Below, piece after piece: positions 1-52,195 of a stretch of 64,000 nt of DNA (position 1 is its first letter; each line of letters opens with the position of its first letter). A model generated the notes under the pieces. It was not told the origin of the DNA. It did no database searches and saw nothing but the letters and a program-made list of their open reading frames with translations. Source of the stretch: Escherichia coli (GTDB lineage Bacteria; Pseudomonadota; Gammaproteobacteria; Enterobacterales; Enterobacteriaceae); the NCBI RefSeq assembly GCF_003018255.1, contig NZ_CP027440.1; one strand, given 5' to 3'. The translations under genes and the position numbers were made by a program.

Positions 1-59
1 ATTAAGTTGACTTTTAGCGCCCATATCTCCAGAATGCCGCCGTTTGCCAGAAATTCGTC

Positions 60-141
60 GGTAAGCAGATTTGCATTGATTTACGTCATCATTGTGAATT
101 AATATGCAAATAAAGTGAGTGAATATTCTCTGGAGGGTGTT
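60..141 (+). promoter_or_regulatory. carAB control region with two ARG-box-like palindromes (tgtgaattaatatgcaaa about 93-110; agtgagtgaatattctct about 115-132)
   Basis: Two TGAAT...ATTCA-type half-palindromes read directly upstream of carA; matches the known ArgR-repressed carAB P2 operator architecture. Confidence 0.6.
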
Positions 142-12926: not shown

Positions 12927-13697
12927 ATGAAGATTATTACTTGCTATAAGTGCGTGCCTGATGAACAGGATATTGCGGTCAATAATGCTGATGGTTCATT
13001 AGACTTCAGCAAAGCCGATGCCAAAATAAGCCAATACGATCTCAACGCTATTGAAGCGGCTTGCCAGCTAAAGCAACAGGCAGCAGAGGCGCAGGTGACG
13101 GCCTTAAGTGTGGGCGGTAAAGCCCTGACCAACGCCAAAGGGCGTAAAGATGTGCTATCGCGCGGTCCGGATGAACTGATTGTGGTGATTGATGACCAGT
13201 TCGAGCAGGCACTGCCGCAACAAACGGCGAGCGTACTTGCTGCAGCCGCTCAGAAAGCAGGCTTTGATTTGATCCTCTGTGGCGATGGTTCTTCCGACCT
13301 TTATGCCCAGCAGGTTGGTTTGCTGGTAGGCGAAATCCTTAATATTCCGGCAGTTAACGGCGTCAGCAAAATTATCTCCCTGACTGCAGATACCCTCACC
13401 GTTGAGCGCGAACTGGAAGATGAAACAGAAACCTTAAGCATTCCGCTGCCTGCGGTTGTTGCTGTTTCCACTGATATCAACTCCCCACAAATTCCTTCGA
13501 TGAAAGCCATTCTCGGCGCGGCGAAAAAGCCAGTCCAGGTATGGTCGGCGGCGGATATCGGTTTTAACGCAGAGGCAGCCTGGTCAGAACAACAGGTTGC
13601 TGCGCCGAAACAGCGCGAGCGTCAGCGCATCGTGATTGAAGGCGACGGCGAAGAACAGATCGCCGCATTTGCTGAAAATCTTCGCAAAGTCATTTAA
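12927..13697 (+). CDS. fixA: electron transfer flavoprotein beta-subunit homologue (carnitine reduction)
   Basis: ORF 12864..13697; FixA sequence begins [18 protein letters not shown] at 12927 (256 aa). Confidence 0.92.
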
Positions 13698-28713: not shown

Positions 28714-28802
28714 GTGTAGGCCTGATAAGACGCGGCCCGCGTCGCATCAGGCAATCGGCGCAAAATTGCCGGATGCGGCGTGAACGCCTTCTCCGGCCTA
28801 CC
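28714..28802. repeat. pair of inverted REP elements filling the djlA-rluA intergenic region
   Basis: gtgtaggcctgataagacgcggcccgcgtcgcatcaggc and tgccggatgcggcgtgaacgccttctccggcctacc. Confidence 0.75.
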
Positions 28803-35698: not shown

Positions 35699-35862
35699 TG
35701 CCGGATGCGCTTTGCTTATCCGGCCTACAAAATCGCAGCGTGTAGGCCTGATAAGACGCGTCAGCGTCGCATCAGGCGGTGAATGCCGGATGCGCTTTGC
35801 TTATCCGGCCTACAAAATCACAGCGTGTAGGCCTGATAAGACGCGTCAGCGTCGCATCAGGC
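35699..35862. repeat. two tandem BIME units (85-bp period), each a REP plus inverted REP
   Basis: Unit tgccggatgcgctttgcttatccggcctacaaaatc(g/a)cagcgtgtaggcctgataagacgcgtcagcgtcgcatcaggc occurs at about 35699 and 35784. Confidence 0.85.
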
Positions 35863-44530: not shown

Positions 44531-44565
44531 TTTGCACCTCAAAAAAGAGTGGCAAAGGACTTGAG

Positions 44566-44658
44566 AAGGAGCCTCAAATCCCTTCGCCGGCGTTATCCGG
44601 ATCAGGTTCGACGGGTATTTTCTCAGCGCACGCGTCTGCGTGGCACCCCGTTGAGAAC
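44566..44658 (-). ncRNA. sroA: TPP riboswitch (THI element) in the thiBPQ leader; region of the SroA sRNA
   Basis: Minus strand reads ...ggggtgccacgcagacgcgtgcgctgagaaaatacccgtcgaacctgatccggataacgccggcgaagggatttgagg..., carrying the conserved CUGAGA and ACCUGAUC.GGAUAA.GCC.GCG.AGGGA thi-box motifs. Confidence 0.85.
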
Positions 44659-44693
44659 GGCGTTAGTGTAGTGATTTTGTTATCAACCAGCAA

Positions 44694-46349
44694 TCATGGA
44701 TCCGGCGGCGCAAACCACGCTGATTTAAAATCGAACCAGCCGAGGGTATTCATACGCAGGCCGCGCATACTGCGTTGCCCCTGAATGATCAGCCAGTGGT
44801 GGATAAGCGGCACCATTGCTTTGCTGGCGACCAGTTGCTGGCACCAGTTCGCCAGGTTTATTTCGCCATTGCGCCAGCGGGCGGCGTCGGCTTGCCAGTC
44901 GATCGGAATACAGTGTTGTAGCAGCGGCACCTCGCACAGGTGCGCGAATAGCGAAAAATCCAGCGGCAGCGTAAAGTTGGCGCTGTTAAGCCAGATATCG
45001 CTCTCGATCTCTCCTTCATGCCACTGATCGTAGCTGATCTCTTTGATTTCCAGCGTGACCTGGTGACTTGCCAGAATCTGCTGCATGATCCCGGCAATCA
45101 CCCTATGCTCACTGTGATCCTGATAAAAGGTCAGGGTGAGGCTTTCCAGACCAGCCGGTTTTTCGCTCTTTATGGTGCGGGTATGGTGCCAACGGGGAAG
45201 CAGCCCATAGGCCGGAAACCACAACTGCTGGTACTGTTCCTCGGCGAAATAAACCAGATTGGTCGGCGAAAGCACATAGCTTATCCAGTCTCTGACTTGC
45301 TGATTCGCCCCGCGATGGGTACGGCTGTCGAACAGTAAATAGTAACAACCTTCTTCAAGGCGGCTTTCAATCTCTTTTTCCTCGTCTTGCGGTCCTTTCA
45401 GCATCAGGCCTCCCGCGGGGTCATCAGCAATTTCCGGCAAGACCCAGACGTTAACTTCGTCGATTAATGCCCGATAACCAAAGAAGTCGTCGAATGCCTG
45501 AATTTTCAGTTGATTGCTGCTGTTGCGGATCACCGCATAAGGACCCGTTCCGATGGGATGGCTGGCAAAGTTGCTGAGGGTTTCCCATTCGCGCGGCAGG
45601 ATCATCGCCGGAACTTGCCCCAGCAGTAACGGTAACCAGCGGTCCGGTTGCGTGAGATGGATATCCAGCGTCCAGGGCGTCGGCGACACAATGTCAGCAA
45701 TATGCGAATAGAGCGGCAGCGTATTGATTCGTTTTAAAGAGGCGATCACGTCGTCCATTTCCAGTTCACGACCATGATGAAAATGGACTCCTGGACGCAA
45801 AAAGAAACGCCAGTGAAGCGGTAAAATTTGCTGCCAGTGGTGGGCGATGTCCGCTTCCAGTTCCCCATTTTCCTCATTTATGCGCGTTAGCGAACTGAAG
45901 ATTTGCCGGGCGATATGGGTTTCGGAACGACGCAATGCACTGCCGGGCAGCAGATTACGCAACGGACGATAGTAGAGAACGCGCAGGATGTGCCGCCCCT
46001 GGCGGAAGCTGCGTCCCAGATGAGAAACCAACATTTGCCGCACAGCCGCTTTGTCGCCAACCAGTTGCACCAGTTGATCGATACGATCCTGCTCCAGCAG
46101 GTCCTCTGCTCGCTGTTGCTGAAGCGCCAGCCCGGTATAGAGGAATGTCAGACGCGAGCGTTTGCCGCGCCCGACTTCCGCTTCCCACGTCAGCCAGCCG
46201 CGATCCTGCATGGTGTTGAGCAGGGTGCGCATATGACGACGCGAGCAGCTCAATAACGCTGCCAGTTCGTTGAGCGTCGTGTCCTGCGATTTACCCTCGC
46301 AGCATTGCCACAGGCGGATGAACTGTTGTTGCAGACGAGCAGATGGCAT
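44694..46349 (-). CDS. sgrR: transcriptional activator of sgrS (solute-binding-protein-like domain with N-terminal HTH)
   Basis: ORF 44694..46370; start taken at [33 protein letters not shown] (551 aa). Confidence 0.93.
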
Positions 46350-46416
46350 AAAAGGGGAACTCCTGCGCAAAAGACAGCAATTTTATTTTCCCTATATTAA
46401 GTCAATAATTCCTAAC

Positions 46417-46646
46417 GATGAAGCAAGGAGGTGCCTCATGCGTCAGTTTTATCAGCACTATTTTACCGCGACAGCGAAGTTGTGCTGGTTGCGTTGGTTA
46501 AGCGTCCCACAACGATTAACCATGCTTGAAGAACTGATGCAATGGGAGGGGAGTCATTCTGACTACTGATTTGCGGACATCATGTGTGACTGAGTATTGG
46601 TGTTAATCGCCACGCCAGCAGTGATTATCTGCTGGCTTTTTTCTTT
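46417..46646 (+). ncRNA. sgrS: dual-function small RNA SgrS (glucose-phosphate stress)
   Basis: Begins gatgaagcaagg...; contains the sgrT ORF, the conserved ptsG-pairing region (gtgtgactgagtattggtg) and a terminal hairpin gccagcag-tgattat-ctgctggc plus T-run. Confidence 0.85.
46438..46569 (+). CDS. sgrT: 43-aa peptide encoded within SgrS
   Basis: C-terminal 43 aa of ORF 46270..46569, MRQFYQHYFTATAKLCWLRWLSVPQRLTMLEELMQWEGSHSDY, preceded by aggag. Confidence 0.85.
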   Translation: MRQFYQHYFTATAKLCWLRWLSVPQRLTMLEELMQWEGSHSDY

Positions 46647-46676
46647 TTGGCGATTGAGTGCCGGACGGTGTACAAA

Positions 46677-48693
<2,017 letters not shown>

Positions 48694-51358: not shown

Positions 51359-51404
51359 GGTTTGGGTCCTTGTCTCTTTTTGAGCGCCTCGCTTCGGGCA
51401 TAAA

Positions 51405-51433
51405 AAAACCCGCGCAATGGCGCGGGTTTTTTG
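51405..51433 (-). terminator. leu attenuator terminator hairpin (cccgcgc-loop-gcgcggg flanked by T runs)
   Basis: GC-rich stem-loop followed by a U-run on the minus strand, between leuL and leuA. Confidence 0.8.
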
Positions 51434-51450
51434 TTTGACTGAGTGCTGAC

Positions 51451-51537
51451 TTAATTCTGAATGCCGCTCACCAGTCTACCGCGCAAAGAAGATGCGTTTA
51501 GTAGTAGTAGACCGATAAAGCGAACGATGTGAGTCAT
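51451..51537 (-). CDS. leuL: leu operon leader peptide (four consecutive Leu codons)
   Basis: Last 28 codons of minus ORF 51451..51642: [28 protein letters not shown]. Confidence 0.85.
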
Positions 51538-52195
51538 TAAATCAGCTCCAGATGAATGCGATATGCTTTTAGAGTTACTGGATACCAAAACGGATGTCAA
51601 CCCTGATGCAACAAAAACGTCCAGCCAGCGTGAGTTCTGCATCCGTCAAATTAGCTAATTGTGCTGCGGTGGTTAAAACAAGCGATATTAATTTCTGCTT
51701 AACCACCGCCGCTTTTCATCGGTTGACATATTTCAGAATAAATTTTTGCATCTAATCGACGAGGGAAAGGGGGATAAAATGCACGCGTTACAAAACCTAT
51801 CCTGATGATTTGTATTGAATTATATGTATTGCGAATTTTTTGATATTCATTTGGTGAATATTATTGATCAATTAATGTTAAGAATTAAAACATTAAACAT
51901 ATAAATTAATTATTAAAAAAGCACATTTAATCCATTTTGTGGATGATTGAGTATTCGTGGTAGTTATGATTAGATTGTTTTCGCAACAAAAACATTATGG
52001 ATTATTATGCTGTGGTAAATGACGCTTTCCACGGCAATGGATTCTGTTTTTATCAGAACCCGTATCTTTATGTTTTCCTAATTTTACTCATTTTCCTTTT
52101 TCTTATTTTATATGCATGATAAATCATATTCTCGAGGATTATTTCTCTGCATTCCAATAAGGGAAAGGGAGTTAAGTGTGACAGTGGAGTTAAGT
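51538..52195. promoter_or_regulatory. AT-rich leuL-leuO intergenic region (divergent promoters)
   Basis: About 660 bp with long A/T tracts (e.g. ttaatgttaagaattaaaacattaaacatataaattaattattaaaaaag); this locus is a known H-NS-silenced region. Confidence 0.6.

What the first reader, a model, noticed from the sequence alone, without database searches (positions are those of the whole stretch)
46349..46677. sgrS abuts a convergent leuD; the setA gene found after sgrS in K-12 is absent
In the K-12 gene order as I remember it (sgrR, sgrS, setA, leuD) the sugar-efflux gene setA follows sgrS and is co-transcribed with it. Here the SgrS terminator hairpin ends about 30 bp from the leuD stop codon and no transporter ORF is present. 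This changes what the SgrS transcript can read through into.
Basis: partly seen in the sequence, partly recalled or inferred. Interest (0 to 1): 0.4.

Follow-up and report, generated by a model that had tools for sequence, protein, structure and literature searches.

The report
Ordinary setA-less sgrS–leuD junction
This E. coli strain has no setA sugar-efflux gene between the small RNA gene sgrS and leuD, but that is the usual layout in about 40% of E. coli genomes and in sister Escherichia species, and it is already published, so K-12 is the variant here.

Summary
SgrS lies at 46417-46643 (+). It is a full-length Rfam match with sgrT intact. Convergent leuD ends at 46677, 33 nt later. No SetA-like sequence occurs anywhere in the 64 kb window. 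K-12 has a 1179-nt setA at this position.

The arrangement is not unusual. The contiguous junction is present in 2159 of 5426 complete E. coli genomes, and setA is present in 3241; the two counts are complementary. Reference strains of phylogroups B2, D, E and F lack setA, while A and B1 have it. E. albertii, E. whittamii and two other Escherichia lineages share the same 31-33 nt spacer, so this is one old deletion.

In every sampled non-Escherichia genus with enough downstream sequence to judge, setA follows sgrS, so the linkage is ancestral for the family. The K-12 allele differs sharply from the window, at 76-80% identity from inside sgrT to 81 nt inside leuD. The same allele is 98-100% identical in a lineage whose sgrR is 8% diverged. 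This suggests setA was regained in A/B1 by allelic replacement.

Two papers already cover this: PMC6896753 (setA gain in A/B1) and PMC2760817 (the two SgrS types and setA synteny). It is already known and of low interest. An antisense effect of read-through on leuD is plausible but untested.

The parts
44694..46349 (-). sgrR, the transcriptional activator of sgrS, transcribed divergently from it
   Evidence: tblastn gives 97.6% identity to K-12 SgrR over residues 1-551. It is annotated sgrR in the 100%-identical strain 104 record.
46350..46416 (.). sgrR-sgrS divergent control region containing the sgrS promoter
   Evidence: It differs from K-12 at a single base. A promoter-like site AAGACA-16-TATATT lies at 46371-46398 (+) and is identical in K-12.
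46417..46643 (+). SgrS small RNA, complete
   Evidence: Rfam RF00534, 221.8 bits, E = 3.5e-62, model positions 1-232 of 232.
46438..46569 (+). sgrT ORF (43 aa) inside SgrS, CFT073-type allele ending WEGSHSDY
   Evidence: Translation. It is identical to CFT073 SgrT, whereas K-12 SgrT ends WDDRNSES. It is annotated sgrT, WP_001248768.1.
46584..46603 (+). conserved SgrS core 20-mer in the conserved 3' region that Horler and Vanderpool assign to base pairing
   Evidence: GTGTGACTGAGTATTGGTGT is identical in K-12 and gave exact matches in 48 Enterobacteriaceae genomes. The conserved 3' base-pairing region is described in PMC2760817.
46614..46648 (+). SgrS intrinsic terminator: 8-bp stem, 7-nt loop, then T6-C-T5
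   Evidence: Terminator scan. RNA fold gives -15.5 kcal/mol, z = -3.7, against -13.2 kcal/mol for K-12. Most other genera share the same T6-C type.
46644..46676 (.). 33-nt spacer that occupies the position of setA; this is the deletion junction
   Evidence: It aligns base for base, with a 2-nt indel, to E. albertii, E. whittamii, Escherichia sp. E1V33 and strain SCPM-O-B-8794. No setA remnant is present. No terminator-like site for leuD is found on the - strand.
46677..47282 (-). leuD, the last gene of leuABCD, convergent with sgrS
   Evidence: ORF list. tblastn gives 98.5% identity to K-12 LeuD. Annotated leuD in strain 104.
46548..46757 (.). allele-specific patch where the setA-less and K-12-type haplotypes diverge sharply
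   Evidence: Identity to K-12 is 76% over 46542-46638 and 80% over the last 81 nt of leuD. The same 100-nt profile gives 99% just left of the patch and 91-97% over the next 200 nt to its right; the two long alignments over 16 kb average 95.8% and 96.8%. The edges given here are approximate.

Best explanation
The window carries the genus-typical, setA-less allele of the Escherichia sgrR-sgrS-leuD locus. Here SgrS/SgrT is a self-contained, SgrR-activated gene with its own intrinsic terminator. It sits 33 nt from the end of convergent leuD, and the glucose-phosphate stress module lacks its SetA arm.

The inferred history has three steps. First, sgrS-setA-leuD was the ancestral order in Enterobacteriaceae. 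Second, setA and the hairpin after leuD were deleted once, before E. albertii and E. coli diverged. Third, the ancestor of E. coli phylogroups A and B1, which include K-12, regained setA by homologous replacement. The replaced segment ran from inside sgrT to about 80 nt inside leuD and came from a deeper, still unidentified Escherichia-like lineage.

What is shown: the absence of setA, how widely that state is distributed, the shared junction, and the sharp edges of the haplotype. What is inferred: the direction of the events (loss, then regain), and that SgrS read-through here produces RNA antisense to leuD.
For: - **Window content.** SgrS is complete and no SetA-like sequence exists in the window.
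- **Frequency in E. coli.** The window junction is 100% identical to E. coli strain 104. It is contiguous in 2159 of 5426 complete genomes and split in the other 3240 matching genomes. setA is found in 3241 genomes, 3228 of them at 99% identity or more. The counts are complementary, so setA-less genomes do not carry setA elsewhere.
- **Phylogroups.** No setA in CFT073 (B2), 042 (D), O157:H7 (E) or IAI39 (F). setA is present in K-12 (A) and IAI1 (B1).
- **Other Escherichia.** E. albertii, E. whittamii, sp. E1V33 and SCPM-O-B-8794 lack setA. They share the same spacer and the same SgrS 3' end as the window.
- **Other genera.** Every non-Escherichia locus with enough downstream sequence to judge has setA starting 87-253 nt after the SgrS core. 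These include Citrobacter, Salmonella arizonae and diarizonae, Klebsiella, Raoultella, Enterobacter, Atlantibacter, Siccibacter, Pluralibacter and Superficieibacter.
- **Divergence of the K-12 allele.** It is 76-80% identical to the window inside the patch, against 99% just left of it and 91-97% just right of it.
- **Transfer between lineages.** The K-12-type patch plus setA is 98-100% identical in Escherichia sp. MOD1-EC7003, whose sgrR is only 92% identical to K-12.
- **Origin of the K-12 setA.** It is 77-80% identical to Citrobacter and Salmonella setA, like sgrR at 78-81%. The K-12-type leuD tail is closest to Escherichia species at 81-85%, against 70-79% for other genera.
- **Literature.** PMC6896753 states that the A/B1 sublineage acquired setA. 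PMC2760817 reports K-12 versus CFT073/O157 SgrS at 88% identity and draws setA in its synteny figure.
Against: - The donor of the K-12-type cassette was not found.
- The haplotype distances rest on short stretches (about 100 nt of sgrS and 81 nt of leuD). The sgrT 3' end evolves quickly in all genera.
- Phylogroup assignments of the reference strains come from general knowledge and were not computed here.
- The complementarity of the two counts was verified genome by genome for only one example (NZ_CP169026.1).
Confidence: 0.85

Rival explanations
1. setA-positive is the vertical, ancestral state of E. coli. Under this reading the setA-less allele entered phylogroups B2, D, E and F by recombination from other Escherichia species.
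For: setA follows sgrS in every sampled non-Escherichia genus with enough downstream sequence to judge, so retention in some Escherichia line is required in any scenario. The locus clearly does recombine between lineages.
Against: Inside the patch the K-12-type allele is further from the window (76-80%) than E. albertii or E. whittamii are (about 88-98%). A vertical E. coli allele should not be an outgroup to other species. setA diversity is very low, with 3228 of 3241 genomes at 99% or more. The K-12-type allele is near-identical across an 8% species gap, which points to recent spread of that allele. The setA-less flanks diverge between species roughly as neighbouring genes do.
Confidence: 0.1
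2. This is a recent, strain-specific deletion of setA, or an assembly artefact, in the window's genome.
For: None beyond the bare difference from K-12.
Against: The same junction occurs in 2159 complete genomes and in four other Escherichia lineages. The window is 100% identical to a finished chromosome. No setA remnant or repeat scar is present.
Confidence: 0.01
3. setA has moved to another chromosomal site in setA-less strains.
For: None.
Against: 3241 genomes carry setA and 2159 carry the contiguous junction. Together these account for the 5399 genomes that match. setA occurs once per genome and, where checked, lies directly after sgrS. Paralogues below about 85% DNA identity, such as setB and setC, would not be seen by megablast and are a separate matter.
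Confidence: 0.02

Closest known systems
E. coli CFT073 / O157:H7-type sgrR-sgrS-leuD locus (Horler & Vanderpool 2009, PMC2760817)
   Same: The SgrT protein is the same as in CFT073 and IAI39 (WP_001248768.1). The SgrS 3' end and terminator type are the same, and there is no setA.
   Different: CFT073 also carries an IS200C element inserted immediately after the six Ts of the SgrS terminator. O157:H7 has a mutated sgrT start codon according to PMC2760817. The window has neither change.
E. coli K-12 sgrR-sgrS-setA-leuD locus (the sgrS-setA operon)
   Same: It shares sgrR, the promoter region, the 5' two-thirds of SgrS/sgrT (99% identity), the base-pairing core and the leuABCD operon.
   Different: K-12 has setA 27 nt after SgrS, expressed by terminator read-through (PMC4509938, PMC9765468). 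It has a GCCCGGTC-AAAT-GACCGGGC hairpin after leuD and a T8 terminator tail. Its SgrT C-terminus differs (WDDRNSES). A K-12-specific stem-loop sequesters the sgrT ribosome-binding site (GGGGGTGCCCC there, GGAGGTGCCTC here) (PMC2760817).
sgrS-setA(-leuD) synteny in other Enterobacteriaceae (Citrobacter, Salmonella, Klebsiella and others)
   Same: sgrR is divergent from sgrS and the SgrS core is identical. The terminator is of the same CTGCTGGC-T6-C type as the window. Citrobacter LeuD ends in the same ...FMR*.
   Different: All of them keep setA directly downstream of sgrS. The window and most Escherichia lineages have lost it.

Membership tests
SgrS small RNA (Rfam RF00534) | Full-length covariance-model match above the gathering score | tested here: met
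   221.8 bits against a gathering score of 37, model positions 1-232 of 232.
SgrS small RNA (Rfam RF00534) | Divergently transcribed sgrR immediately upstream | tested here: met
   sgrR lies at 44694-46349 (-), 97.6% identical to K-12 SgrR.
SgrS small RNA (Rfam RF00534) | Dual function: an intact sgrT ORF, a conserved 3' base-pairing region, and a Rho-independent terminator | tested here: met
   43-aa SgrT. The core 20-mer is identical to K-12. The terminator hairpin folds at -15.5 kcal/mol and is followed by a T tract. Regulation of ptsG itself was not tested.
sgrS-setA operon (K-12 type) | A setA (MFS sugar efflux) ORF directly downstream of the SgrS terminator on the same strand | tested here: not met
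   Only 33 nt separate SgrS from the leuD stop codon. tblastn with SetA finds nothing in the window (best E = 3.8).
sgrS-setA operon (K-12 type) | Read-through of the SgrS terminator yields a translatable downstream mRNA | not testable with these tools
   This needs RNA data. The only downstream + strand ORF (46647-46913) is antisense to leuD and is not conserved.
setA-less Escherichia allele (CFT073 type) | The same 31-33 nt spacer and SgrS 3' end as other setA-less Escherichia | tested here: met
   Alignment with E. albertii, E. whittamii, E1V33, SCPM-O-B-8794 and CFT073. The junction is contiguous in 2159 complete E. coli genomes.

The most novel reading that the evidence does not exclude
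In setA-less Escherichia the deletion also removed the hairpin that follows leuD in K-12. Convergent sgrS and leuABCD are then separated only by the one-directional SgrS terminator. Two effects could follow. Leaky SgrS read-through would be antisense to leuD. Unterminated leu transcripts would carry the complement of the SgrS seed and terminator, and could act as a sponge or as transcriptional interference. This would couple sugar-phosphate stress to leucine biosynthesis in a way that K-12 cannot show. Nothing here demonstrates either effect.
Probability: 0.1. Interest if true: 0.4.

Novelty: already known. Interest (0 to 1): 0.1.

Why it matters
The practical value is as a caution. K-12 is not representative at this locus, and the SetA arm of the glucose-phosphate stress response is missing from roughly 40% of sequenced E. 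coli. The missing group includes the reference strains of phylogroups B2, D, E and F checked here (CFT073, 042, O157:H7, IAI39) and most sister species sampled. Results on sgrS-setA co-transcription and on terminator read-through reporters therefore do not transfer directly to those strains.

The evolutionary detail added here is modest. It consists of family-wide sgrS-setA linkage, one old loss in Escherichia, and a probable regain in A/B1. That regain also swapped the SgrT C-terminus and the SgrS terminator. It does not open a new question.

Tried and rejected
- **SetA protein search.** The search against the 5.8-billion-protein set was meant to find intermediate-identity SetA proteins and so the donor. 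The best 120 hits were all about 100% identical E. coli SetA, so it was uninformative.
- **The one 94%-identity hit (P0001, 416 aa).** Its contig, L054, is an ordinary K-12-type E. coli locus. It carries short duplications of about 64 and 78 nt, probably an assembly artefact, and is not a divergent allele.
- **Sun & Vanderpool 2011 (PMC3019967).** The paper is not held in the library.
- **Reference strains.** UMN026 (NC_011751.1) is not in the collection. The APEC O78 record starts at a different origin, so the requested coordinates missed the locus.
- **setA remnant in the spacer.** I looked for a setA remnant, or a remnant of the setA-leuD intergenic hairpin, in the 33-nt spacer. Only chance 7-8-mers matched. 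A weak resemblance of TGCCGGA to the Citrobacter GCCGGATG...CATCCGGC hairpins is not convincing.
- **The 88-aa + strand ORF at 46647-46913.** I considered it as something SgrS read-through might translate. I rejected it because it is antisense to leuD, has no evident ribosome-binding site, and has its frame broken by a 2-nt indel in three sister lineages.
- **SgrS terminator as a bidirectional terminator for leuD.** On the - strand the hairpin is followed by GUGGCGAUUAAC with no U run, and the scan finds no - strand site.

Full report
**What is in the window**

The interval 46349-46677 is the whole space between the start codon of sgrR (44694-46349, - strand) and the stop codon of leuD (46677-47282, - strand). 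Rfam finds a full-length SgrS at 46417-46643 on the + strand, scoring 221.8 bits against a gathering score of 37 and covering model positions 1-232 of 232. Inside it, sgrT (46438-46569) is intact and encodes MRQFYQHYFTATAKLCWLRWLSVPQRLTMLEELMQWEGSHSDY.

The conserved core 20-mer sits at 46584-46603. The terminator is an 8-bp stem with a 7-nt loop at 46614-46636, followed by TTTTTTCTTTTT. It folds at -15.5 kcal/mol with z = -3.7.

Only 33 nt (46644-46676) separate the SgrS 3' end from the leuD stop codon. tblastn with K-12 SetA finds nothing anywhere in the 64 kb window (best E = 3.8), and the spacer contains no setA remnant. K-12 MG1655 has sgrR, sgrS, a 1179-nt setA and leuD in that order.

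Two mechanical + strand ORFs over 60 aa overlap the interval. One, at 46270-46569, is an upstream extension of the sgrT frame. The other, at 46647-46913, is antisense to leuD and is frame-broken in sister species. Neither is a transporter.

**How common the arrangement is**

The 701-nt junction (46200-46900) is 100% identical to E. coli strain 104, a chicken isolate. It aligns as one contiguous place in 2159 of 5426 complete E. coli genomes. In the remaining 3240 matching genomes it splits exactly at the SgrS 3' end (query position 443, window 46642). A place can join pieces up to about 850 nt apart, so genomes with a small insertion such as the IS200C of CFT073 may be counted as contiguous.

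K-12 setA is found in 3241 genomes, 3228 of them at 99% identity or more, and with one copy per genome in nearly all. The two sets are complementary, so setA-less genomes do not carry setA at another site.

Reference strains behave as follows:
- **No setA:** CFT073 (B2), 042 (D), IAI39 (F) and O157:H7 (E).
- **setA present:** K-12 (A) and IAI1 (B1).

The phylogroup labels come from general knowledge and were not computed here.

**Relatives outside E. coli**

An exact scan of one genome per species with the SgrS core 20-mer returned 48 loci. Every non-Escherichia locus with enough downstream sequence to judge has a setA homologue starting 87-253 nt after the core, usually followed by convergent leuD. 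These loci cover Citrobacter, Salmonella enterica subsp. arizonae and diarizonae, Klebsiella, Raoultella, Enterobacter, Atlantibacter, Siccibacter, Pluralibacter and Superficieibacter. The sgrS-setA linkage is therefore ancestral for the family.

Within Escherichia the picture differs. E. albertii, E. whittamii, Escherichia sp. E1V33 and the divergent strain SCPM-O-B-8794 all lack setA. They align base for base with the window through the SgrS 3' end, the terminator, the 31-33 nt spacer and the leuD tail. This is one old deletion inherited across the genus, not a feature of this strain.

**The two alleles**

Over 16 kb the window and K-12 are 95.8-96.8% identical in the two long alignments. 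Identity is 99% across 46442-46541. It then falls to 76% across 46542-46638 and to 80% over the last 81 nt of leuD, and recovers to 91-97% over the next 200 nt.

The K-12-type allele is therefore a block with sharp edges. It comprises the sgrT C-terminus (WDDRNSES instead of WEGSHSDY), the terminator (T8 tail), setA, a hairpin after leuD, and the leuD tail (…FMN* instead of …FMR*). Inside this block the window is nearly identical to E. albertii and E. whittamii, so the K-12-type allele is an outgroup to the whole set.

The same K-12-type block is 98-100% identical in Escherichia sp. MOD1-EC7003, whose sgrR is only 92% identical to K-12. The cassette has therefore moved between lineages by homologous recombination.

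K-12 setA is 77-80% identical to Citrobacter and Salmonella setA, similar to sgrR at 78-81%. The K-12-type leuD tail is closest to Escherichia species, at 81-85% against 70-79% for other genera.

The most economical history is loss in the Escherichia ancestor, followed by regain in the A/B1 ancestor from a deeper Escherichia-like lineage that had kept setA. I rate this direction of events at about 0.65-0.7. The donor was not identified.

**Function**

In K-12, setA is expressed by read-through of the SgrS terminator, and termination is enhanced under stress (PMC4509938). Deleting the terminator raises a setA-lacZ fusion only 1.6-1.8-fold, so the terminator is leaky (PMC9765468).

In the window any read-through RNA would be antisense to leuD. 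The scan finds no terminator-like site on the - strand between leuD and sgrS. K-12 has a stable hairpin there, GCCCGGUC-AAAU-GACCGGGC at -17.4 kcal/mol. Overlapping convergent transcripts are therefore conceivable, but nothing here shows that they exist or matter.

The window also lacks the K-12-specific stem-loop that sequesters the sgrT ribosome-binding site. It reads AAGGAGGTGCCTC where K-12 reads AAGGGGGTGCCCC. This matches the report that only 3 of 15 strains have that stem-loop (PMC2760817).

**What is already known**

Horler & Vanderpool 2009 (PMC2760817) described the K-12 and CFT073/O157 SgrS types at 88% identity, and drew setA in their synteny figure for the tbpA-leuD interval. González-Alba et al. 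2019 (PMC6896753) state that the A/B1 sublineage of E. coli acquired setA. The presence/absence polymorphism is therefore published.

This analysis adds a few modest details:
- counts across 5426 genomes;
- the junction shared with other Escherichia species;
- family-wide sgrS-setA linkage;
- approximate recombination edges inside sgrT and leuD.

**Verdict**

The finding is ordinary and already known, so interest is low.

Noticed in passing
L051 (CFT073) about 1955-2680; corresponds to window 46643: In CFT073 an IS200C element (tnpA at L051 2078-2536) lies between sgrS and leuD. The alignment departs from the window immediately after the six Ts that follow the SgrS terminator stem, so the insertion truncates the U tract that Hfq-binding small RNAs need.
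   Followed up: partly
window 46429-46437, compared with L001 7380-7388: The sgrT leader reads AAGGAGGTGCCTC here and AAGGGGGTGCCCC in K-12. The K-12-specific stem-loop that hides the sgrT ribosome-binding site (PMC2760817) is weakened here and the Shine-Dalgarno sequence is stronger. sgrT is therefore probably translated more readily in this strain.
   Followed up: partly
window 44842-45041 and 45342-45441 (inside sgrR): Patches of only 84-86% identity to K-12 sit within a gene that is otherwise 92-100% identical in 100-nt windows. sgrR looks mosaic, presumably through recombination.
   Followed up: no
window 46605-46611 and 46649-46655: An outer inverted repeat, AATCGCC / GGCGATT, brackets the SgrS terminator and its T tract. 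On the - strand RNA (the leuD 3' side) it extends the hairpin to -23.4 kcal/mol, z = -3.1. E. albertii has one mismatch in it and Citrobacter lacks it. This may be chance.
   Followed up: partly
L052 16289-16858 (IAI39) and L055 7759-8328 (042); window about 44661-44693: The type III secretion effector gene espY2 is inserted between the thiB TPP riboswitch and sgrR in IAI39 and 042. It is absent from the window, K-12, strain 104 and IAI1.
   Followed up: no
L048 (Escherichia sp. MOD1-EC7003) 13009-13690: This divergent Escherichia lineage has sgrR about 92% identical to E. coli, yet carries the K-12-type SgrS 3' end and setA at 98-100% identity. That indicates recent exchange of the cassette between lineages.
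   Followed up: partly
window 42-94; 28719-28798; 35745-35810; 44561-44660; 51402-51551: Other Rfam matches above the gathering score: ES003 small RNA, two naRNA4 (REP-derived) copies, the thiB TPP riboswitch, and the leu operon leader. All are expected for this part of the E. coli chromosome.
   Followed up: no
L054 4663-5524 (GCA_000619105.1 contig JHGJ01000003.1): A 416-aa 'SetA' at 94% identity comes from short duplications of about 64 and 78 nt in a 7.1-kb draft contig. This is most likely an assembly artefact rather than a divergent allele.
   Followed up: yes
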